Origin: Bacilli bacterium
Lineage (GTDB): Bacteria; Bacillota_I; Bacilli_A; RFN20; CAG-826
Direction: 5' to 3'
Assembly (NCBI GenBank): GCA_045628045.1
Contig: JAZQOV010000011.1
Location: forward strand, 4,912-68,911
Length of the DNA: 64,000 nucleotides
Shown here: one piece after another, positions 16,699 through 64,000 of the stretch
Layout of the letters: every line of letters begins with the position of its first letter
Position numbering within the stretch: the first letter of the stretch is position 1
Notes under the pieces: model-generated
Told to the model about the DNA's origin: nothing
What the model saw: only the letters and a program-made list of their open reading frames with translations
The model's database searches: none
Program-made: the position numbers and the translations under genes

Positions 16699-16759
16699 CT
16701 TTCCGGATAAAGTTTATATATTGTATTTTACATAATATTATTCTTTGTTATAATAATGA

Positions 16760-17468: not shown

Positions 17469-17474
17469 ATTTTT

Positions 17475-17600
17475 ACCATAAAGAGTACGGCGAGGGACAA
17501 GCCCTATGACCCGTCAGCAACCTGCGTATAGCAAGGTGCTAAAGCTTGACTGATGGTTGTTTTTATTTTATAAGCCGTCAGTATCGATGGCTTTTAATTT
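17475..17600 (+). promoter_or_regulatory. SAM-I (S-box) riboswitch with terminator/antiterminator expression platform
   Basis: S-box core strings in order: ACCAT-AAAGAG..GAGGGAC..AGCCCTATGA..CCGTCAGCAACC..AAGGTGCTAAA..ATGGT. Terminator AAGCCGTC-agtatc-GATGGCTT followed by TTTAATTT (17572-17600). ACTGATGG (17549-17556) can instead pair with CCGTCAGT (17575-17582) as an antiterminator. Confidence 0.8.
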
Positions 17601-53613: not shown

Positions 53614-56484
53614 ATGGAATTCCTGGATATTTTTAAATTTATAATAGCTGCAATCATTCCAATTCTTTTAAGCGTTGGCTGTATTTATCTTGAGAAAACA
53701 AGAAGATTTTCTAAGTTAAACAAATACGTTAAAGCTTTAATATTTGGAGTTATTTTTGGCATCAGTTCAATTAGTGGAACTTTACTTGGTTTAAAACTAC
53801 CAAATGGCGCAATCATCAACGTGCGTGATGCCTCTCCTATTATATGTGGTCTTCTTTTTGGTGGACCATCAGGAATTTTGGCTGGCTTAATTGGCGGCGG
53901 CTTTAGAGCACTTACTCCTCTTTGGGAACCATCGACAGCTTACACAGTTGTTGCATGTTCTATTTCAACCGCAATGGCTGGTGTATTTACTGTGTTTGTT
54001 AGACATTTCATCTTTGATGATAAAAAAGGTACTTGGTACTATGGATTCTTCCTTGGCGTATTAGTTGAAGACTTCCATATGATGATGTCTGTGCTTACAC
54101 ACACAGAAGATATTGTTAAGGTTTATAACTCAGTTATAAAAGTATGTACAGTTCCAATGGTATTAGCAAATTCATTAGCGGTAATGATTGCAATTATTAT
54201 TGTTAATTTAATAAATCACGAGAAAATATTTGAAAAAGAAGTCAGAACTCATATTTCTACAAAGGTTCAGGTTTCTTTGATTCTTTCTCTTGTTGTTTCT
54301 TATGTTGCAACTGCGTTATTTACGAATATGTCTGTTAATAAAGTTGTTCAAACAAATATTAAAGGTCAATGTGAAAACGCTATAAGCGATGTTATTAATA
54401 ATGTTGATGACACAATCAACAATGTTATGAGTGACAAACTTGATGAAGTCGCAATAAAACTTCTTGATGAAGTAAAACCATTAGAAAAAGATAGGCTTTT
54501 ACGTAAAGAAGCATTAGTAAGTATTCTTAATGATTTCTCTGGTGAGATTTCTGAAATCAATATTGTTGGCACTGATGGTTTTGTTCATTATTCCACAGAT
54601 CAATACGATTTTATGGAAGACGGAAGTGGACCATTTAACATGGAAATTGGTGACCAATCAAGAGAATTTAATGTCTTACTTAAAGAAGGCGAAACAAACT
54701 ATTTTATCCAGGAATTCCGCGAGATTTCTGCGTATGATGGCGGAAAATCAATGAAATATGCTGGCTATAGATTTGATGCTGAAGACATTGAATCAGACTT
54801 CTGTTATTTCCAAATTGGTTTAGATGCTGCAAGGTATCACGAACTACTTCAAGACTATGTTGATGAATGTGCTAAATTTAGACACATTGGTGAAGAAGGA
54901 TTCGTTGTAGTTAGCGATGAAAATGGTGCAATTGTTTCAACAATCGTTGATTGTCCATTTACTGAAACAATTGATGTAAATAAGTTCCTAAACGATGGTT
55001 ACGATAAATATTACACTTACTCTAAATTTGTTGAAGGTTACTACATTGTTGCTTTTGCAGGCGCTGAAGAAAGTGATTTAGCATCCGTAATTTCATTCAC
55101 TGCAATTTCTCTTGCTGAAGTTTTTGTTTATTTGCTTTTATATTGCGTTTTATATATAGCAGTTAAACGTAGAATCGTTGATAAAATTAAAACTATAGGC
55201 TTAAGCCTAAATGAAATTTCTTCAGGAAACTTAGATGTTGTTGTTAATCAAAGAGACAGTTATGAATTTGATTCATTAAGTAACGACATTAATAAAACTG
55301 TTGGAACTCTTAAAGAGTTCATTGCGAAAGAAGCTAATAAGAATGCTGAAGAGTTAGCATTTGCTAAAAACATTCAATATTCTGTTCTTCCAACCGCTTT
55401 CCCAATGAATGATAGATTTGAAATTTATGCTTCTATGTCAACCGCCAAGACTGTTGGTGGTGACTTCTATGATTTCTATTTTATAGATAGAGAGCATGTA
55501 TTAATTGAAATCGCTGATGTTAGTGGAAAAGGTATTCCTGCCGCTATGTTCATGATGAGAGCAAAATCTGTTCTTAAATCACTTATAGAATCAGGTATTG
55601 GAATTGAAAATGCCTTTATTGAAGCAAATAGAAAACTTTGTCAAGGTAATGATACTCAAACATTTATTACGGTTTGGGGTGGAATTATCGATTTAACTAC
55701 AGGACATGTTGACTTTGTCAACGCTGGTCATAATCCTCCAATTATTTGTAGAGATGGCAAATTTGAGTACTTACATAGTAAACCAGGCTTTGTTTTAGCA
55801 GGTTTAGAAGGATTTAAATACGTTAAGCAAAGCTTTGACATTAAGCCAGGTGATATGATTTATCTTTATACTGATGGTGTTACTGAAGCTAATAACGAAA
55901 AACATGAACTTTATGGAGAAGAAAGACTTCTTAAAGCAATTGGAGATAAAACATATACTTCTAAATCTATTTGTGAAACTGTCTCAAAGAGTTTGAAGAA
56001 GTTTGTGAATGATGCAGAACAATCTGATGATATTACAATGCTCGCATTTAAATTCTATGATGTTGAGCTCGCTAATATTAAAGTTGTGGATGCAGACTTA
56101 AAGAATTTACCAGAAATCATAGATTATATCGATGATTTGCTTGATAAAAATAACGCCACATTATCTGCAAAATCACAAATCGATGTAGCAGTGGATGAGA
56201 TATTCTCAAATATCGCATTCTACGCTTATCCAGAAGGCCAAGTTGGTAAGGTCAAAGTTTCAGTCATTATGTCTAAAGACAATGAAGAAATGACCATTAT
56301 CTTTGAAGATAAAGGAAAAACATATAACCCACTTGAGAAAGAAGATCCAGATACTTCACTATCTCTAGAAGAGAAGTCTATTGGTGGACTAGGTATATTT
56401 ATTGTTAAAAAGACAATGGATTCATTAGAATACGATAACGTTAATGGTCATAACGTATTAACCCTCAGAAAGAAGATTCATTAG
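53614..56484 (+). CDS. membrane sensor (LytS-type 5TM) - extracytoplasmic domain - HAMP - PP2C/SpoIIE phosphatase - RsbW/SpoIIAB-like HATPase fusion
   Basis: N-terminal multi-TM region. HAMP-like KRRIVDKIKTIGLSLNEISSGNLDV. PP2C strings GGDFYDF, DVSGKGIPAAMFM, LYTDGVTEA, DDITMLAF. C-terminal VDEIFSNI.., GGLGIFIVKKTMD. Confidence 0.8.
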   Translation: MEFLDIFKFIIAAIIPILLSVGCIYLEKTRRFSKLNKYVKALIFGVIFGISSISGTLLGLKLPNGAIINVRDASPIICGLLFGGPSGILAGLIGGGFRALTPLWEPSTAYTVVACSISTAMAGVFTVFVRHFIFDDKKGTWYYGFFLGVLVEDFHMMMSVLTHTEDIVKVYNSVIKVCTVPMVLANSLAVMIAIIIVNLINHEKIFEKEVRTHISTKVQVSLILSLVVSYVATALFTNMSVNKVVQTNIKGQCENAISDVINNVDDTINNVMSDKLDEVAIKLLDEVKPLEKDRLLRKEALVSILNDFSGEISEINIVGTDGFVHYSTDQYDFMEDGSGPFNMEIGDQSREFNVLLKEGETNYFIQEFREISAYDGGKSMKYAGYRFDAEDIESDFCYFQIGLDAARYHELLQDYVDECAKFRHIGEEGFVVVSDENGAIVSTIVDCPFTETIDVNKFLNDGYDKYYTYSKFVEGYYIVAFAGAEESDLASVISFTAISLAEVFVYLLLYCVLYIAVKRRIVDKIKTIGLSLNEISSGNLDVVVNQRDSYEFDSLSNDINKTVGTLKEFIAKEANKNAEELAFAKNIQYSVLPTAFPMNDRFEIYASMSTAKTVGGDFYDFYFIDREHVLIEIADVSGKGIPAAMFMMRAKSVLKSLIESGIGIENAFIEANRKLCQGNDTQTFITVWGGIIDLTTGHVDFVNAGHNPPIICRDGKFEYLHSKPGFVLAGLEGFKYVKQSFDIKPGDMIYLYTDGVTEANNEKHELYGEERLLKAIGDKTYTSKSICETVSKSLKKFVNDAEQSDDITMLAFKFYDVELANIKVVDADLKNLPEIIDYIDDLLDKNNATLSAKSQIDVAVDEIFSNIAFYAYPEGQVGKVKVSVIMSKDNEEMTIIFEDKGKTYNPLEKEDPDTSLSLEEKSIGGLGIFIVKKTMDSLEYDNVNGHNVLTLRKKIH

Positions 56485-57325: not shown

Positions 57326-57820
57326 ATGATTATTTCAATTTTAAGTGTTGACAAAAACTATGGAATTGGGAAAAATAATTCCCTTCTTTTCCATCTAAAA
57401 AAAGACATGGAATTCTTCAGAAAGACAACTGAAGGTCATATGGTTTTTATGGGTGAAAATACTTTACTTTCTTTCCCTGGAAGTAAGCCACTTAAAAATA
57501 GAATCAATGTAGTTCTTAGCAAAGACAAAACTCACAATTACGAAGGTTGTAAGAATGTTCACAATTTCCGAAAATTCACGAGAATTCTCAGGAAAAATGG
57601 CAGAAAACACGATGTTTTTGTAATTGGTGGAGCGTCTATTTATATGCAAACACTTCCTATAGTGGATATGGTATTATTAACCAAAGTTGATGCTGATGGA
57701 CACGCTGATGTCTTCTTTGATAATTTAGATAAAAATCCATCTTTTGAATGTGTTGATCAAGGCACACCAATTATGGATGGAGATTACAAAATTAGATTCA
57801 CAACTTATATTCGAAAATAA
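57326..57820 (+). CDS. folA: dihydrofolate reductase
   Basis: ISILSVDKNYGIGKNNSLLFHLKKDMEFFRKTT, VIGGASIY. Immediately follows thyA. Confidence 0.9.
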   Translation: MIISILSVDKNYGIGKNNSLLFHLKKDMEFFRKTTEGHMVFMGENTLLSFPGSKPLKNRINVVLSKDKTHNYEGCKNVHNFRKFTRILRKNGRKHDVFVIGGASIYMQTLPIVDMVLLTKVDADGHADVFFDNLDKNPSFECVDQGTPIMDGDYKIRFTTYIRK

Positions 57821-57868
57821 TCTTTAGTATTGTATTGCAATTTAACGAGAATTATTTGTAATATTGTT

Positions 57869-57929
57869 ATCAGGCGAGATGGGTCTGACAAAAGGAAAGA
57901 GATTGGCTGCTACCAATCTCTTTTTCATA
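57869..57929 (+). ncRNA. candidate sRNA module A (tandem copy)
   Basis: TTGCAA (57835-57840), N18, TAATAT. The transcript starts AUCAGGCG... Perfect 11-bp terminator stem AAAGAGATTGG/CCAATCTCTTT (57896-57923) followed by TTTC. Confidence 0.45.
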
Positions 57930-58011
57930 CTTTGGAATACAGACTGTAGAATTAATCATGAATTTTGCAAAAATGCATTGAAATAATTATGAATTTAGAT
58001 ATAATAATAGT

Positions 58012-58070
58012 ATCAGGCGTGGGATCTGACAAAAGGAAAGAGATTGGTTGCATCCAATCTCTTTTTCATA
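58012..58070 (+). ncRNA. candidate sRNA module B (putative antitoxin RNA, convergent with the 39-aa ORF)
   Basis: TTGAAA (57978-57983), N16, TATAAT (58000-58005). Same stem as module A with a different loop (58037-58064) followed by TTTTC. On the minus strand the same hairpin is followed by CCTTTTG. Confidence 0.45.
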
Positions 58071-58100
58071 GTTTGGAATACAGGCGTGGGTTTCTAACCC

Positions 58101-58220
58101 TTAATCATTGATTTTAATAATCAGTAAAATAAGAGCTAGAATAAGAAGGTACTCCACTAAGGACATCCTCCCTTCCCAAACGCCTGAATGCAAACTCCGA
58201 CGTTCGAAGACCGCCATCAT
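58101..58220 (-). CDS. 39-aa hydrophobic peptide, candidate type I toxin (not in ORF track)
   Basis: Minus strand: AGAAAGGAAT ATG ATG.. encodes MMAVFERRSLHSGVWEGRMSLVEYLLILALILLIIKIND*. Strong SD-like AGAAAGGA, with tight spacing. One predicted TM helix. Confidence 0.4.
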   Translation of the reverse strand: MMAVFERRSLHSGVWEGRMSLVEYLLILALILLIIKIND

Positions 58221-58446
58221 ATTCCTTTCTATGAAGTCAAATGAATTATTGACCCCACACTAACTAATTAGAGAAAAATAAGCAAAACTGCTAAAAAATA
58301 TTTTTAATATATTAATATATTACAATTTAGCACTTTTTCTGAGACTCAAAAAAGTACGGAAAAAAACTTGCTTTTATACTTAAAAAGGAATAATTTAACA
58401 TAAATGTTTAATTACATTGCTTTACTCTAGAAAAGAGGTAGAAGTT

Positions 58447-61400
58447 ATGAAGAAAAGTAGATTTTATACTTTATTAGCTCTATCAAGTATCCTTACTTTA
58501 GGAACTGCTTTTGCAGCCACCTCAATTAATGATGAAACTAATAGAAACCAAGGCATTAACGAATTAAATGCAGAGTCTTTGTCAGAGGATAAACTTTATG
58601 TTGCTCCTGCTGCAGTTTCTCCATATACATACACTACTTCTCCAACTAATGAACCGTGGTATAAAAATAGCCACGAATACCATTCTACAGCAACTGGATC
58701 AGATGGGTTTGATTATCAAAGAAACCAAAAAACTACAATGTATGATTTCATGAATGTTTCTGAAACATGGAACTCATATCGTGGTGAAAATGTTAAAGTA
58801 GCCGTTATTGACACAGGTTGTTATACATCACATGAAGACTTTAACGGCACAAATATAAAAACAATCTCTAAAAACATGGTGTCAGGAACAACTGGATTAT
58901 CAGCTGTAAATGATGCTCATGGACATGGAACAACTTCTGCAGCAACAATTGCGGCCGCTGTTAATGGTAAAGGCGGCACCGGAATTGCACCAAATGTAGA
59001 ATTAATAGTTTTGAAATGCGTTGATGCTAACAATGCTTTTAGTAATACTGCAATTAACAATGCTCTTCAATATTGTATTGATAATGATGTTGATGTCATT
59101 AACATGTCAATTCAAGGTTACAACGTTTATTCAAACTTTTCCTCAACATATGTTGAAGATTTTGGAAATTACACGGTAAACACAACTTCATCTGGCATAA
59201 TGACTCCTACACAATTCTCTACAAAAATTAAAGCTTGTCACGATGCTGGTATTACTTTAGTTGCCGCTGCCGGTAACTATAATACTTCCAAAGAATCATA
59301 TCCTGCTGCCAATGATTATGTCATTGCTGTTGGCTCCACAGGCTTAACGAGTGCAACATCAAAAGCTGGTTATTCCAATTATGGAGATTGGCTTGATATT
59401 AGTGCTCCTGGTTACGTTTATACTCCATCGCTATCCGGAACCGACCAATATTCTGTTACAAATGGCACAAGCTTTTCTGCTCCTTTGGTTACTGGTGCAA
59501 TAGCACTATATAAATCAAAATATCCTGATGCAACTCCTGATCAAATTGAAGAAGCTCTAAAAGCGACTGCTCAACCAATTAATTGGCAAGGTGGCGCTGG
59601 GGCAGTTAATGTTGGAGCTTTCTTGGAATATGCTCCTAAGTCACCAGTTAGCAGTTTAGCTCTTCCTGATGAAACAAAGACATTATCTGTTGGAGAAACA
59701 TATCAACTAATTCCAACAATTTTACCGTCTGATGCTTCGCAAGAAGTTACTTATGGTAACACAGACAATTCTGTTGTATCAATTTCAAATACTGGATTAG
59801 TCACTGCATTAAAAGCAGGGACATCAACAGTCACTGTGTATAGTAAAAACACATCCATCTATGACACAGTTGTAATTACTGTTAATGCTGTTACTGGCGA
59901 GAAAAAAACAGTATCAAAAGAATGGACTTTAACCAGTTCTAATACTGATTGGACAGCATCAGGAAACGAAACATATTTTAGCCAGCCTTATGGTTACAAA
60001 GCAAATGGTGGAACTCTCATTACAACAAATTCAATAGAAGACTTTACTAAAACAAACAAAACAGAGATTAAAGTTAGTTTTAAGTGTCTCCAAAATGGTG
60101 GTTCAAGTTCAAAAATCACTATTTACCTTTACGATAGCAGTGGAAACGTATTAGGTTCAGAAGTTTTTACTCCTGTAAATAAAAATTCAGCTTCCAATAC
60201 CGAATATTGCACAGCAACATTCACATCAAATTTAACTAATGCAGCCAAAATAGGAATGAAGGTCACTACGTTTGGAAAGAACATTTTGGTTAATGGTGCA
60301 AAGTATGAATTGACTTATCTAGATTCAGGAGCAACCCCGTCAGTTAAGACGCTTTCTAGCATTTCTGTTTCTAATCAAAAAACCACATTTACTGTTGGTG
60401 AAACATGGACATTTGGCGGAACAGTAACTGCTACTTACTCTGACAATTCAACTGCAGATGTTACTTCTAATGTCACATTCAGCGGTAACACAACATCATC
60501 CGCCGGTCAAAAAACGGTAACTGTTTCTTATAAAGAAGGCAGTGTTGAAAAAACAACAACCTATTCAATTACTGTTTCAGCACCGGTTGTTACAAATTAC
60601 ACTGTCACATTTAACTCAAATGGTGGTTCGGGCACAATGACTAGCAAAACCACTACTGGTTCTACATATGTTGTTCCTGAATCTAACTTTACAAAAGAAG
60701 GCTATACATTTGACAAATGGGCTCTTAATAGTACATCTGGTAGTAAATACGCAGCCGGAACAACAATCAATAATATCTCCTCTAATATCACGTTATATGC
60801 TACATGGATTCAAGATTTAACACCTCAACCAGGTGATTATTACAAGGATGTCGACACAAGCTCTCAAGAAAATCTAATTTCAACATTGCATTCAACCATT
60901 TCACAGGGAACTGTAGATGTTGGTTATGATGGCCTTTGGGATGCTTATGAAAAAACAGATTTACGTCCTGGGACAAATTATTATTGGGATATGTATTCCA
61001 ATTATAATTTTACAAAATCTTCGCCAAATAGCAATTATAAAAAAGAAGGTGACGCAGTAAATAGAGAGCACACTGTTCCACAATCTTGGTTTAATGAAAA
61101 ATCTCCAATGAAAGCCGACTTATTTCATGTTTATCCAACTGACGGCTATGTAAACAATAGAAGATCTAATTATCCTCATGGTGATGTTGGTAATGCAACA
61201 TATACTTCTGAAAACGGAAGTAAATTGGGAACAGCTAGCTTTCCAGGAATTTCAGGCACCGTTTTTGAAGTAATTGATGAATATAAGGGCGATTTTGCCC
61301 GCAGCTATTTTTATATGGCTACCAGATACTATAATACGTTTAATGATTGGGATTCAAACGTGATATTCCAAAAAACACCGCCGTATATGACTTCTGCTTT

Positions 61401-64000
61401 CATCAATCAATATTATGCATGGCATATAGCTGATCCGGTTTCAGAAAAGGAAGTAAACCGTAATGAAGCAGTTTATGGAATTCAGAAAAATAGAAATCCG
61501 TACATTGATCATCCTGAATGGGTTGCATATGCTTTTAAAGGCATTGCTCCAATTGTGGGTGAAAAAACACTTAACTCAATCACTTTAAGTGGTTCACAAA
61601 AAACAGAATTTACTGTTGGTGAAACTTTCTCATATACTGGATTAGTTGTCACTGCTCATTACTCAGACAACACAACAGCAATAGTAACACCAACAAGTGT
61701 TTCTACACCAGACATGAATTCTGCTGGTGAGAAAACAGTTACTGTTACCTATACAGATTCAACAGGAACAAAGACTGATACTTATACTATTACAGTAAAA
61801 AGCAGTGGAGTTACACCAGAGCCAGAAAAACACACAACTGCATTAACACTAGATAAAACAACCGCAACAATAAAAGTAGGAGAAAATCTAACATTAACAG
61901 CAACTAAGACGCCATCTGATTCAGTTGATGGAATTAGTTGGTCCACGGACAATTCTTCTATTGCAACAGTTTCAAATGGTGTAGTAACAGGCGTTTCTCC
62001 AGGAACTGCAACTATCACAGCTACATCTAATGGCATCCCTGCCACTTGTTTAGTTGAAGTTAAATCACAAAGCACTAGTAGTACTGTCACAGCATCAATT
62101 GATTTTACAAATAGTAATGATTCTTACAAAGACAGTGTTGGAAATACATGGACAGGAGCCGGAGGCAATAAAGGAAATTATTATCGACTTGATAGTGCTG
62201 ATTCTATAACAAGCTCATCAATTTCTATTGATACTTCAAAAACAATAGATCTTTCTCTATACATTGGTTCATATGGTAGTGGCACCAAAACGCTAAGTGC
62301 TTATGCAATTAATAGTTCTGGAACAGTTGTTACAAACCAAGTTTCAATGTCACCAACATCTACGAGTTCAAATAAATTTACAGGGACTCTAACTTTTAAT
62401 AACACCTCAGATTCAAATATTAAAATTGTTTTTAAAACAACTTCTGGTTCAATTCGTTTTTACAAAGGAGATATTACTTATACTCCGTTGTCAATTGGAC
62501 CACAAGTAACAAGCATTTCATTAAGTGAATCAGAATTAACTTTTGATTTATATGATAATTATTCGCCTCAAACACTTACTGCTAGTATTGAAGCAGATGT
62601 CGGTGCCGACAAAACAATACTTTGGACATCTTCTGATGAAACTGTCGCAACAGTTGTTGATGGTGTTGTTACTCCTCACTCCAAAGGAACTGCAACAATT
62701 ACCGCAACATCTAAAGCAAATTCAGAGATAAAAGCTACTTGTAAAGTTGAAGTTACTGATTCTAGTCCGATACCGGTCACCGGAATAACATTAAATGAAA
62801 CTTCAGCAACACTTATAATTGGTTCAACCTTGACATTAGAAGCAACAATCACACCTACTAATGCTACAAATAAAAATATTAGTTGGTCTTCTAATAATGA
62901 AAATATTGCTACTGTTTCAGATGGCCTTGTTACAAGCAAGGCTATTGGTACAGCTATTATAACAGTTACGACAGATGACGGCGGTTTTACTGCAACTTGT
63001 ACAATAACTGTCAGTGCCGCACCTGTTATCACATATCAACTTGAAGCAGATGAAACAGAAGTTCCATTTATGAGCGGAACAAATCATATTGCTTCGGTTG
63101 GAGTCAAATTGTATCAATACACAAATGGTGTTAAAGGAAACCAGGTTAGTTCAGGAAGCTCTAATGTTGATACTTCTTCATTAGGCAACAAAACAATTTC
63201 TTATATTTATCAAGATATTACATACGAAACGATAGTTAAAGTAACAAATTATGGTGCTGATGTTGGCTTGCCAACCCAATTAGATCCAGTAACTAATAAC
63301 ATAACGTCAAGTTTTACAGTCACTAGCAGTACTACTAGCTCCTGGAGTATGCCAACTGGATGGACTGTTACAAGTAGTGGAACAACTGGTTACGAAGCCA
63401 ATCGAGGAATTCAATTACAAAAGAACGCAAAAATATCGTTCGTTCTTCCTTCATATAAGAATATTACTTCCATTTCTTTAGATGTTGCAAGAAGCAGTAA
63501 TGGATCAGGTTCTTTTACGGTAACCGTTGATGACGAATTAGTTAAAACAATTTCTAGTTTTAATACTACAAAAACTACACAAACGATTAAATTTGATGAG
63601 GCAAAATCAGGTGTTATTAAAATTGATGGCAGCGCTTCTGCTAGCTCATTATATATCAAAGCAATTTCTATAAATTATCAAGAAATTGTAGAAGGTCAAT
63701 TAATTGAACACAATGCCACACCAAATCAACAAGCGATAGCCTGGTCTGATTATTTTATTAAGTTAACTGGTGGCGGAGCATTTGATGGACCATGTAAAGA
63801 ATCAACTCCAGAAGCAAGAAGAGCTGCACTTCAAGAAATTTGGGGTGAAGTCTCTGCAGAATATGGTTACATGGTAAATGGATCTAAAGATGCATTCTGT
63901 GATTCATCTGCCACTGGTTCTATTTCAGAGGCAATGCAACATTATAGTTACATTGTTGATACATATGGATTAGATAATTTCGTTAAAGATGGATCAGGTA
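58447..64000 (+). CDS. giant secreted multidomain protein, 3'-partial: S8 subtilisin-like protease, Big_2 domains, Listeria-Bacteroides repeat, endonuclease I domain
   Basis: I translated this frame from ATG 58447 (AGAGGT RBS) to base 64000 and found no stop. It is absent from the ORF track because no stop lies in the window. Signal peptide. S8 triad strings VAVIDTG, HGHGT, GTSFSAP. YTVTFNSNGGSGTM..GYTFDKW. Endonuclease I strings NREHTVPQSWF, DLFHVYPTDGYVNNRRSNYPHG (about 60.84-61.55 kb). Confidence 0.85.
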   Translation, partial: MKKSRFYTLLALSSILTLGTAFAATSINDETNRNQGINELNAESLSEDKLYVAPAAVSPYTYTTSPTNEPWYKNSHEYHSTATGSDGFDYQRNQKTTMYDFMNVSETWNSYRGENVKVAVIDTGCYTSHEDFNGTNIKTISKNMVSGTTGLSAVNDAHGHGTTSAATIAAAVNGKGGTGIAPNVELIVLKCVDANNAFSNTAINNALQYCIDNDVDVINMSIQGYNVYSNFSSTYVEDFGNYTVNTTSSGIMTPTQFSTKIKACHDAGITLVAAAGNYNTSKESYPAANDYVIAVGSTGLTSATSKAGYSNYGDWLDISAPGYVYTPSLSGTDQYSVTNGTSFSAPLVTGAIALYKSKYPDATPDQIEEALKATAQPINWQGGAGAVNVGAFLEYAPKSPVSSLALPDETKTLSVGETYQLIPTILPSDASQEVTYGNTDNSVVSISNTGLVTALKAGTSTVTVYSKNTSIYDTVVITVNAVTGEKKTVSKEWTLTSSNTDWTASGNETYFSQPYGYKANGGTLITTNSIEDFTKTNKTEIKVSFKCLQNGGSSSKITIYLYDSSGNVLGSEVFTPVNKNSASNTEYCTATFTSNLTNAAKIGMKVTTFGKNILVNGAKYELTYLDSGATPSVKTLSSISVSNQKTTFTVGETWTFGGTVTATYSDNSTADVTSNVTFSGNTTSSAGQKTVTVSYKEGSVEKTTTYSITVSAPVVTNYTVTFNSNGGSGTMTSKTTTGSTYVVPESNFTKEGYTFDKWALNSTSGSKYAAGTTINNISSNITLYATWIQDLTPQPGDYYKDVDTSSQENLISTLHSTISQGTVDVGYDGLWDAYEKTDLRPGTNYYWDMYSNYNFTKSSPNSNYKKEGDAVNREHTVPQSWFNEKSPMKADLFHVYPTDGYVNNRRSNYPHGDVGNATYTSENGSKLGTASFPGISGTVFEVIDEYKGDFARSYFYMATRYYNTFNDWDSNVIFQKTPPYMTSAFINQYYAWHIADPVSEKEVNRNEAVYGIQKNRNPYIDHPEWVAYAFKGIAPIVGEKTLNSITLSGSQKTEFTVGETFSYTGLVVTAHYSDNTTAIVTPTSVSTPDMNSAGEKTVTVTYTDSTGTKTDTYTITVKSSGVTPEPEKHTTALTLDKTTATIKVGENLTLTATKTPSDSVDGISWSTDNSSIATVSNGVVTGVSPGTATITATSNGIPATCLVEVKSQSTSSTVTASIDFTNSNDSYKDSVGNTWTGAGGNKGNYYRLDSADSITSSSISIDTSKTIDLSLYIGSYGSGTKTLSAYAINSSGTVVTNQVSMSPTSTSSNKFTGTLTFNNTSDSNIKIVFKTTSGSIRFYKGDITYTPLSIGPQVTSISLSESELTFDLYDNYSPQTLTASIEADVGADKTILWTSSDETVATVVDGVVTPHSKGTATITATSKANSEIKATCKVEVTDSSPIPVTGITLNETSATLIIGSTLTLEATITPTNATNKNISWSSNNENIATVSDGLVTSKAIGTAIITVTTDDGGFTATCTITVSAAPVITYQLEADETEVPFMSGTNHIASVGVKLYQYTNGVKGNQVSSGSSNVDTSSLGNKTISYIYQDITYETIVKVTNYGADVGLPTQLDPVTNNITSSFTVTSSTTSSWSMPTGWTVTSSGTTGYEANRGIQLQKNAKISFVLPSYKNITSISLDVARSSNGSGSFTVTVDDELVKTISSFNTTKTTQTIKFDEAKSGVIKIDGSASASSLYIKAISINYQEIVEGQLIEHNATPNQQAIAWSDYFIKLTGGGAFDGPCKESTPEARRAALQEIWGEVSAEYGYMVNGSKDAFCDSSATGSISEAMQHYSYIVDTYGLDNFVKDGSG

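What the first reader, a model, noticed from the sequence alone, without database searches (positions are those of the whole stretch)
57835..58330. Candidate type I toxin-antitoxin locus: hidden 39-aa hydrophobic ORF plus tandem convergent sRNA modules
An ORF on the minus strand (58220 to 58101) is below the ORF-track cutoff. It is preceded by AGAAAGGA and encodes MMAVFERRSLHSGVWEGRMSLVEYLLILALILLIIKIND: a polar N-terminus and a single TM helix, the shape of Fst/TxpA/BsrG-type toxins.

Converging on it from the plus strand are two tandem copies of a promoter, a ~55-nt RNA and a perfect 11-bp terminator stem (57869-57929 and 58012-58070). The stems are conserved while the loops differ. The same hairpin reads as a terminator on the minus strand too (followed by CCUUUUG). 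The peptide mRNA and sRNA B would therefore overlap at their 3' ends.

The decamer CAGGCGTGGG starts the sRNA-B body (58014) and recurs at 58081, just past the stop codon. Its complement in the peptide mRNA 3' UTR can pair with CAGGCGUUUGGG inside the coding region (plus 58175-58186). Long-range mRNA folding of this kind is typical of type I toxin mRNAs.
Basis: partly seen in the sequence, partly recalled or inferred. Interest (0 to 1): 0.75.

Follow-up and report, generated by a model that had tools for sequence, protein, structure and literature searches.

The report
Candidate type I toxin-antitoxin cassette
Between folA and a large protease gene sits a 627-base lineage-specific insert that looks like a new, unconfirmed example of a well-known kind of bacterial module, in which a small RNA silences the mRNA of a small membrane peptide.

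Summary
There are two tandem promoter + ~60-nt RNA + 11-bp hairpin units on the plus strand. A 39-codon minus-strand ORF with an AGAAAGGA ribosome-binding site and a hydrophobic C-terminus converges on unit B. The decamer CAGGCGTGGG is repeated.

New evidence points the same way:
- The minus-strand RNA is much more structured than its complement (-83.6 vs -61.1 kcal/mol; 10 vs 1 G-U pairs).
- Its 3' UTR pairs with its own ribosome-binding site.
- Small RNA B is complementary to that 3' UTR at the shared bidirectional terminator (41 nt) and at a second site just past the stop codon (19 nt).
- In five contigs of relatives, folA and the protease gene are only 3 nt apart, so the whole 627-nt block is an insertion. 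Other relatives carry different genes here, including an MqsA-like pair.

No homologue of the peptide or the RNAs was found in any library. It is not an Fst, TxpA or BsrG family member. No convincing toxin promoter was found, and ORF conservation could not be tested.

Verdict: a plausible orphan type I toxin-antitoxin cassette, a new member of a known kind. It is unproven and of moderate interest.

The parts
57835..57864 (+). Promoter A: -35 TTGCAA (57835-57840), 18-nt spacer, -10 TAATAT (57859-57864)
   Evidence: Read from the sequence. In strain contigs L016 and L017 the -35 is invariant and the -10 reads TATAAT, while the spacer varies.
57869..57929 (+). Small RNA A (~60 nt): weak 5' hairpin, AAAAGG linker, terminator hairpin
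   Evidence: Fold -23 kcal/mol, z -3.7. Its start is present in two other samples. Its 5' part pairs less well with the peptide mRNA: -22 kcal/mol, reached by 30 of 500 shuffles.
57896..57923 (.). Hairpin A: perfect 11-bp stem, loop CTGCTA. Probably also the thyA-folA terminator.
57930..57986 (-). Remnant in unit A of the peptide mRNA 3' UTR and last codons (…KIHD* vs …KIND*). The second decamer has decayed here (CAGACTGTAG).
   Evidence: Alignments. No significant similarity beyond about 57986.
57978..58005 (+). Promoter B: TTGAAA-16-TATAAT
   Evidence: Matches 11 of 12 positions. One of only two such matches in both strands of the 64-kb window.
58012..58070 (+). Small RNA B (~59 nt), the candidate antitoxin
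   Evidence: Fold -20.1 kcal/mol, z -3.3. Complementary to the peptide mRNA over 58030-58071 (-67.9 kcal/mol). Predicted complex gain -37 kcal/mol.
58014..58030 (+). Direct repeat D1 (CAGGCGTGGGATCTGAC) at the 5' end of small RNA B
   Evidence: Pairs with mRNA 58099-58080 at -28.2 kcal/mol, reached by 0 of 500 shuffles.
58037..58064 (.). Hairpin B: perfect 11-bp stem, loop TTGCAT. Bidirectional terminator shared by small RNA B and the peptide mRNA.
58065..58081 (-). Anti-SD element in the mRNA 3' UTR (GUAUUCC AAA CUAUGAA)
   Evidence: Pairs with UUCAUAG (58235-58229) and GGAAUAU (58225-58219) in the MFE. Duplex -21.6 kcal/mol, reached by 6 of 1000 shuffles and 11 of 1777 genomic 36-mers.
58081..58098 (+). 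Direct repeat D2 (CAGGCGTGGGTTTCTAAC). Its complement is the first 18 nt of the mRNA 3' UTR.
   Evidence: In the mRNA it pairs with 58185-58175 inside the coding region.
58101..58220 (-). 39-codon ORF: polar N-terminal 18 aa, hydrophobic LVEYLLILALILLII, tail KIND
   Evidence: Kyte-Doolittle mean hydropathy 3.05 over 15 aa and 2.5 over 19 aa. It is the only SD-preceded hydrophobic small ORF in the window.
58223..58230 (-). Ribosome-binding site AGAAAGGA
   Evidence: Read from the sequence. Single-stranded in 5' fragments of the RNA and paired in the full-length RNA.
58230..58259 (-). 5' stem-loop of the peptide mRNA: 11 bp, of which 3 are G-U
58140..58229 (-). G+C-rich island: 48-52% G+C against 15-30% around it, and G-rich on the minus strand

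Best explanation
The 627-nt folA-protease spacer is an inserted, self-contained type I toxin-antitoxin-like cassette.

**Components.**
- A minus-strand mRNA of roughly 200-260 nt encodes a 39-aa peptide with a C-terminal membrane helix.
- A strongly promoted ~59-nt plus-strand RNA (B) converges on the mRNA and shares its bidirectional terminator.
- A second, partly degenerate copy of the small-RNA gene (A) lies upstream. It arose by a ~143-nt tandem duplication.

**Inferred mechanism.**
1. The full-length mRNA locks itself. Its 3' UTR pairs with the ribosome-binding site and first AUG, and with a coding segment. Translation would therefore need 3' trimming or refolding.
2. Small RNA B pairs with the mRNA 3' end over ~41 nt, and possibly over a further 19 nt just after the stop codon. 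This would create long duplexes that lead to RNase III-type decay, as in bsrG/SR4 and txpA/RatA. The ribosome-binding site stays sequestered in the complex.

**Shown versus inferred.** Shown in silico: the anatomy, the complementarities, the strand-specific folding and the insertion status. Inferred only: transcription of either strand, translation, toxicity and the decay pathway.
For: **Anatomy.** Verified.

**Promoters.**
- Promoter B is one of two 11/12 matches in both strands of the 64-kb window.
- Promoter A's -35 and -10 are kept or improved in two other strains that are 98% identical in folA, although the spacer and the 5' loop vary.

**Folding of the minus-strand RNA.**
- It folds at -83.6 kcal/mol (z -7.1) with 10 G-U pairs. 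The plus strand gives -61.1 kcal/mol (z -4.7) with 1 G-U pair.
- It coincides with a G+C-rich island that is G-rich on the minus strand.
- The ribosome-binding site is open in 5' fragments but paired to the 3' UTR in the full RNA. That duplex is reached by about 0.6% of controls.

**Small RNA B and the mRNA.**
- Terminator overlap duplex of -67.9 kcal/mol.
- Second site of -28.2 kcal/mol, reached by 0 of 500 shuffles.
- Predicted complex gain of -37 kcal/mol with the ribosome-binding site still paired.

**The ORF.** It is the only small ATG ORF of 278 in the window with both an SD-like site and such a hydrophobic stretch.

**Repeat D2.** It is intact only in the unit that carries the ORF and has decayed in unit A.

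**Insertion status.**
- Five contigs of relatives have folA and the homologous S8 protease gene 3 nt apart.
- Other relatives carry unrelated genes at this junction, including a pair with an MqsA-like antitoxin.

**Literature.** Convergent promoters, a shared bidirectional terminator, direct repeats and intramolecular SD sequestration are the conserved features of par-like loci (PMC7472228). SR4 pairs with bsrG mRNA starting from its terminator loop, promotes decay of the mRNA and extends the helix that sequesters the SD (PMC3834814).
Against: - No homologue of the peptide or the RNAs was found. Purifying selection on the ORF is therefore untested.
- The best sigma-70-like promoter for the minus-strand mRNA matches only 8 of 12 positions.
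- Spacing from AGGA to the first AUG is only 2 nt, and 5 nt to the second.
- Hydrophobic codons are expected by chance in T-rich sequence.
- The hydrophobic segment is short (~15-17 aa) and contains a Glu.
- In the predicted complex the repeated decamer is not used for intermolecular pairing.
- Hairpin A could be simply the folA terminator.
Confidence: 0.55

Rival explanations
1. This is a small, non-toxic membrane protein gene under cis-antisense RNA control. The peptide is made and inserts in the membrane as a regulator or accessory subunit. The small RNAs tune its level, but the pair is not an addiction or toxin module.
For: The same anatomical evidence applies. Nothing tested here addresses toxicity. 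The 18-residue polar N-terminus is longer than in many pore-forming type I toxins.
Against: The very tight silencing architecture is characteristic of toxic peptides (PMC7472228, PMC6562991): a self-locked mRNA plus a strongly promoted, duplicated antisense RNA. The cassette is also a lineage-specific insert at a junction where a relative carries a pair with an MqsA-like antitoxin.
Confidence: 0.15
2. This is a pair of non-coding RNAs. The minus-strand element is a structured small RNA or a decayed relic, the 39-codon ORF is fortuitous, and the plus-strand RNAs are its antisense partners or independent small RNAs.
For: The strand-specific structure does not need a coding function. ORFs of 30-50 codons are common in this spacer on both strands. 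No peptide homologue exists. T-rich sequence favours hydrophobic codons.
Against: The ORF is the only one of 278 in the window that combines an SD-like site with a comparable hydrophobic stretch. The structure specifically masks that SD and the start codon. No Rfam family matches either strand.
Confidence: 0.17
3. There is no dedicated function. The hairpins are duplicated bidirectional terminators of the thyA-folA operon, created by slippage. The promoter-like hexamers and the ORF are chance products of A+T-rich spacer DNA.
For: Hairpin A sits 76-103 nt after the folA stop, where a relative also has a terminator. Promoter-like sites are frequent in this region (10 found against 6.7 expected). 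The element occurs in only one species.
Against: - The 11/12 promoter is rare in the window.
- The promoter boxes are conserved in other strains despite variation around them.
- The fold has z -7.1 with a strand-specific excess of G-U pairs.
- The spacer contains a G+C-rich island.
- The SD/anti-SD and D1/D2 complementarities are statistically unusual.
Confidence: 0.1
4. The element is a generic dispersed repeat, of REP or MITE type.
For: The hairpins are palindromic and occur twice. Logan contigs of two other samples end inside unit A, as assemblies often do at repeats.
Against: There are only two copies in 64 kb, and they are adjacent. No copies were found in 596 Gb of species-representative genomes, in JGI metagenomes, or in viral, plasmid and phage collections. 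The rest of this genome could not be searched.
Confidence: 0.03

Closest known systems
par of Enterococcus faecalis pAD1 (Fst toxin mRNA RNA I / antitoxin RNA II) and par-like loci of Firmicutes
   Same: - Convergent toxin mRNA (~230 nt) and very small antitoxin RNA that share a bidirectional intrinsic terminator.
- Complementary terminator stem-loops.
- DNA direct repeats give a second region of complementarity.
- A 5' stem-loop, and intramolecular sequestration of the SD (PMC7472228).
   Different: - The peptide has no PXXXG motif (it contains no proline), no N-terminal helix followed by a charged tail, and no Pfam hit.
- The second complementarity lies in the 3' UTR just after the stop codon, not at the translation initiation region.
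- The SD is masked by the 3' UTR, not by a local 5' stem-loop.
- No Rfam match to the par RNAs.
bsrG/SR4 and txpA/RatA of Bacillus subtilis
   Same: SR4 makes its first contact with bsrG mRNA through its terminator loop. It promotes decay of the mRNA, and on binding the helix that sequesters the SD is extended from 4 to 8 bp (PMC3834814, PMC6562991). That these antisense RNAs overlap the 3' end of the toxin mRNA is from my own knowledge. Here the predicted complex also keeps the SD paired.
   Different: - By my own knowledge SR4 and RatA are longer (~180-220 nt) and overlap more than 100 nt of the mRNA. Here the RNA is ~59 nt and overlaps ~41 nt.
- No sequence or profile similarity to TxpA or BsrG.
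- The helix position in the peptide is reversed.
hok/sok and aapA1/IsoA1 (5'-3' fold-back inhibition of full-length toxin mRNA)
   Same: The full-length mRNA is predicted to be translationally inert, because its 3' end pairs with the translation initiation region. 5' fragments leave the SD open. This comparison rests on my own knowledge of those systems.
   Different: In those systems the antitoxin binds the 5' region of the processed mRNA. Here the antisense RNA binds the 3' region that forms the lock. There is no sequence similarity.
dinQ/agrAB of E. coli (two tandem small-RNA genes beside one toxin gene)
   Same: Two adjacent, related small-RNA genes flank a single small membrane-peptide gene, and only one is well matched to the target. 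This rests on my own knowledge and was not checked here.
   Different: The organism group, the sequences and the site of pairing are all unrelated.

Membership tests
Type I toxin-antitoxin systems (the general kind) | Small (<60 aa) hydrophobic peptide with a predicted transmembrane helix | tested here: met
   The peptide is 39 aa. Kyte-Doolittle mean hydropathy is 3.05 over 15 residues and 2.5 over 19. The definition is taken from PMC6562991.
Type I toxin-antitoxin systems (the general kind) | An antisense RNA gene whose product is complementary to the toxin mRNA | tested here: met
   There is a 41-nt perfect overlap (-67.9 kcal/mol) plus a 19-nt second site (-28.2 kcal/mol, 0 of 500 shuffles). 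The RNA gene has a strong promoter and a terminator. These are predictions only.
Type I toxin-antitoxin systems (the general kind) | Both RNAs are transcribed, the peptide is toxic when overproduced, and the RNA neutralises it | not testable with these tools
   No expression data or experiments are available.
Fst/Ldr family (par-like loci) | Toxin with a hydrophobic domain carrying the PXXXG motif, followed by a charged C-terminal tail (PMC7472228) | tested here: not met
   The peptide contains no proline. Its helix is C-terminal with only a 4-residue tail. There is no Pfam or NCBIfam match at E up to 10.
Fst/Ldr family (par-like loci) | Convergent promoters and a shared bidirectional intrinsic terminator | tested here: inconclusive
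   The terminator is bidirectional and the antitoxin promoter is strong. The toxin promoter matches only 8 of 12 positions.
Fst/Ldr family (par-like loci) | Direct repeats (DRa/DRb) that let the antitoxin RNA pair with the toxin translation initiation region | tested here: not met
   Direct repeats D1 and D2 exist, but D2 lies in the 3' UTR (58081-58098), not at the initiation region.
Fst/Ldr family (par-like loci) | Match to the curated RNA families of the system | tested here: not met
   There is no relevant Rfam hit, even at E up to 10, and none at gathering score.
TxpA/BsrG-type toxins with RatA/SR4-type antitoxins | Sequence or profile similarity of the peptide or RNA to family members | tested here: not met
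   No hits in Pfam, NCBIfam or Rfam. No hits in the word-index search, which needs three shared 5-residue words. The exhaustive search returned only long multi-stretch proteins. tblastn against plasmids and phages found nothing.
TxpA/BsrG-type toxins with RatA/SR4-type antitoxins | Antisense RNA overlapping the 3' end of the toxin mRNA | tested here: met
   Predicted overlap at 58030-58071.

The most novel reading that the evidence does not exclude
This could be a previously undescribed family of type I toxin-antitoxin cassette. Its ~59-nt antitoxin would pair only with the toxin mRNA 3' UTR, at two sites flanking an anti-SD element. It would thereby control both decay and a 5'-3' translational lock. 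The antitoxin 5' decamer is identical in sense to a coding-region segment, so the two would compete for the same 3' UTR partner. The antitoxin gene is tandemly duplicated, and the cassette behaves as a small insertion at a variable site downstream of folA.
Probability: 0.25. Interest if true: 0.5.

Novelty: new member of a known kind. Interest (0 to 1): 0.35.

Why it matters
If confirmed, this would add an orphan type I toxin-antitoxin family from an uncultured low-G+C bacterium. It would combine features known from separate model systems:
- a par-like shared terminator and direct repeats;
- bsrG/txpA-like pairing at the mRNA 3' end;
- a hok-like 5'-3' lock.

It would also show that such cassettes insert as ~0.6-kb units between tightly packed genes. 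Type I systems are badly under-annotated because their parts are short and poorly conserved. A compact, well-delimited example is useful for building search models and as a small RNA regulatory device. It would not change how these systems are understood.

Tried and rejected
**Known RNA and protein families.**
- Rfam, on both strands at E up to 10 and at gathering score, gave only noise such as microRNA models.
- I considered preQ1-I, guanidine-type riboswitch and RAT antiterminator readings of the 5' hairpin plus A-rich linker. I dropped them because there is no Rfam support and no antiterminator alternative.
- Pfam and NCBIfam scans of the 39-aa peptide, the 21-aa Met19 version and the unit-A remnant ORF (Pfam only) found nothing.

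**DNA pattern scans.**
- The genome-contig scan gave 9 hits, about the number I expected by chance for this pattern. None was A+T-rich or had two copies.
- The metagenome scan gave 4 chance hits.
- Three viral scans, including a back-translated peptide pattern, found nothing.
- blastn and tblastn against plasmids and phages gave nothing relevant.

**Protein searches.**
- The word-index search with the peptide found no candidate. I padded the query to 40 aa with the in-frame upstream residue.
- The exhaustive search of 1.84 billion representatives returned only long proteins, most with several matched stretches, which I judge spurious.

**Exact look-ups.**
- FolA, the peptide and the antisense 51-aa ORF are not on record.
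- I tried to reach same-species contigs from the protease side. No hit exceeded 58% identity.

**Other checks.**
- A search for a decayed second toxin copy in unit A found no significant similarity beyond about 57 nt past the hairpin.
- Evaluating the mirrored structure on the plus strand gave an uninterpretable energy, which I discarded.

Full report
**Setting**

The finding lies in the 627-nt spacer (57821-58446) between folA (57326-57820, +) and a very large subtilisin-type (S8) protease gene. The protease gene starts at 58447 and runs off the window end. thyA lies just upstream. The window has 33% G+C.

**Observation check**

- **The ORF.** It spans 58220..58101 on the minus strand and encodes 39 aa. 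AGAAAGGA (58230-58223) precedes it by 2 nt (first AUG) or 5 nt (second AUG).
- **The tandem units.** They share a 62-nt core at 92% identity (57881-57942 and 58022-58083). Each has a perfect 11-bp hairpin, and three of the five mismatches fall in the 6-nt loops.
- **The terminators.** Both hairpins score as intrinsic terminators on the minus strand. On the plus strand the G+C core is followed by TTTTTCAT.
- **The promoters.** Promoter B (TTGAAA-16-TATAAT) matches 11 of 12 positions. Only one other site on either strand of the whole window does as well.
- **The decamer.** CAGGCGTGGG occurs at 58014 and 58081 only.

It runs from the promoters to about 57 nt beyond each hairpin. It is therefore a ~143-nt head-to-tail duplication of the small-RNA gene together with the 3' UTR and last ~10 codons of the ORF. 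Unit A still reads …KIHD-stop where the ORF reads …KIND-stop. Beyond that point the similarity is not significant. So there are two small-RNA genes and one ORF.

**Is the minus strand special?**

Yes, on four counts.

1. The RNA 58262→58030 folds at -83.6 kcal/mol (z -7.1). The complementary plus-strand RNA gives -61.1 kcal/mol (z -4.7).
2. The minus-strand fold uses 10 G-U pairs against 1 on the plus strand. This is what one expects if the structure is selected on the minus-strand transcript.
3. The region 58140-58229 is a 48-52% G+C island in a spacer of 15-30% G+C, and it is G-rich on the minus strand.
4. The fold is a 5'-3' lock.
   - UUCAUAG (58235-58229) and GGAAUAU (58225-58219, the SD plus the first two bases of AUG) pair with GUAUUCC and CUAUGAA in the 3' UTR (58081-58065).
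   - Next to them, AGGCGU..GGG in codons 12-16 pairs with CCCACGCCU (58090-82).
   - An internal AGGGAGG is paired.
   - A 12-bp helix joins the helix-coding codons to the first bases after the stop codon.

The SD/3'-UTR duplex (-21.6 kcal/mol) is reached by 6 of 1000 shuffles and by 11 of 1777 genomic 36-mers. In 5' fragments of the RNA the SD is single-stranded between two hairpins. Masking therefore depends on the 3' UTR.

**Is the ORF more than chance?**

ORFs of 30-50 codons are common in this spacer, so length alone means nothing. However, of 278 ATG ORFs of 25-70 aa in all six frames of the window, 16 have an SD-like site. Only this one also has a 15-residue stretch of comparable hydropathy (mean 3.05). 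Hydrophobic codons come easily in T-rich sequence, so this is supportive and not decisive.

**Small RNA and mRNA**

- Small RNA B (58012-58070) is fully complementary to the mRNA 3' end across the shared terminator, over 41 nt at -67.9 kcal/mol.
- Its 5' 19 nt can also pair with the 20 nt that follow the stop codon (58099-58080), at -28.2 kcal/mol and reached by 0 of 500 shuffles. The reason is that the decamer is part of a 17-18-nt direct repeat, D1/D2.
- Small RNA A pairs less well at both sites. D2 has decayed in unit A, which has no ORF.
- In the predicted complex the gain is -37 kcal/mol. Pairing goes through the terminator region, the SD stays paired, and D1 stays in its own small hairpin. 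The role of the decamer is therefore open. It may serve the intramolecular lock, intermolecular pairing, or both.

**Relatives**

*Same species.* Two Logan contigs from other samples are 98% identical in folA. They carry the start of unit A and end inside it.
- The -35 box is invariant.
- The -10 box reads TATAAT.
- The spacer and the 5' hairpin loop vary.

*Other relatives.* The nearest other FolA proteins are about 80% identical.
- In five of their contigs the folA stop codon and the ATG of the next gene are 3 nt apart. In L025 that gene is a giant protease homologous to the window's from the signal peptide onward (32% identity over 500 aa).
- Other relatives instead carry a 315-329-aa minus-strand gene at this junction. 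Others carry a 117-aa gene plus an MqsA-like antitoxin gene, which scores 36.4 bits against a cut-off of 30.
- None has any similarity to the spacer.

The 627-nt block is thus a lineage-specific insertion at a variable junction. That suits a small selfish cassette.

**Searches for homologues**

All were negative.
- RNA families: Rfam.
- Protein families: Pfam and NCBIfam.
- Protein sequence searches: the word-index search, and the exhaustive search, which returned only long, mostly multi-stretch proteins.
- DNA patterns: genomes, metagenomes and viral contigs gave chance hits only.
- Plasmids and phages.

The key test, whether the ORF is kept intact in diverged copies, could therefore not be run.

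**Weak points**

- The best sigma-70-like promoter for the minus-strand RNA matches only 8 of 12 positions (TTGTAA-17-AATATT, 58325→58297). I could not pick out a protease promoter by eye either, so such scans may be insensitive in this organism.
- The SD-AUG spacing is short.
- The hydrophobic stretch is short and contains a Glu.

**Mechanism proposed**

This is a type I toxin-antitoxin-like cassette.
- The mRNA silences itself through a 3' UTR anti-SD element.
- Small RNA B is made from a strong promoter. It pairs with the mRNA 3' end and probably triggers duplex-dependent decay while the SD remains masked.
- Small RNA A is a partly degenerate spare copy, and its hairpin probably also terminates thyA-folA transcription.

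Only the anatomy and energetics are shown. Expression, toxicity and the decay route are inferred by analogy with par (PMC7472228) and bsrG/SR4 (PMC3834814, PMC6562991).

**Comparison with known systems**

The locus works most like par-like and bsrG/txpA-like systems, with a hok-like fold-back. [quoted passage not shown]
- The defining peptide motif (PXXXG) and the profile matches are absent.
- The direct repeat targets the 3' UTR and not the initiation region.
- The peptide has its helix at the C-terminus.

**Verdict**

Its novelty is that of a new member of a known kind, and its interest is moderate.

Noticed in passing
L012:3731-4541 (also L013, L015); L010:3520-4509; L024:3548-4495; L025:3098-3102: The junction downstream of folA is variable among relatives with about 80% FolA identity. 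Some have the S8 protease gene 3 nt after folA. Some have a 315-329-aa minus-strand gene with no Pfam match on record. Some have a 117-aa gene overlapping an MqsA-like HTH antitoxin gene, a type II toxin-antitoxin-like pair.
   Followed up: partly
window 58447-64000 (+): A very large secreted subtilisin-type (S8) protease gene of more than 1850 codons runs off the window end. It is only 32% identical to its syntenic counterpart in L025 (1936 aa; S8 plus Big_2, Flg_new and Endonuclease_1 domains), although the adjacent FolA is 80% identical. It appears to be a fast-evolving surface protein.
   Followed up: partly
window 58302-58325: An A+T-only near-perfect palindrome, TTTTAATATATT/AATATATTACAA, contains the 16-bp perfect palindrome AATATATTAATATATT. 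It overlaps the best (weak) candidate promoter of the minus-strand mRNA and could be an operator, or chance in A+T-rich DNA.
   Followed up: no
window 17473-17559 (+): A SAM (S-box) riboswitch is the only Rfam family above gathering score in the window (51.8 bits). The only other 11/12 sigma-70 promoter match in the window lies at 16727 (+), about 750 nt upstream of it.
   Followed up: no
window 53614-56484 (+): A 956-aa protein has an N-terminal multi-pass membrane region and, by eye, a PP2C/SpoIIE-like phosphatase region. In the relatives this position upstream of thyA holds a GH31 glycosidase and small ORFs, so the upstream flank of thyA-folA also differs between lineages.
   Followed up: no
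L016:1116-1202; L017:831-906: Both same-species Logan contigs stop inside unit A. In L016 the first loop bases read GGTTG, as in unit B of the window. This suggests either gene conversion between the two units or assembly collapse of the repeat.
   Followed up: partly
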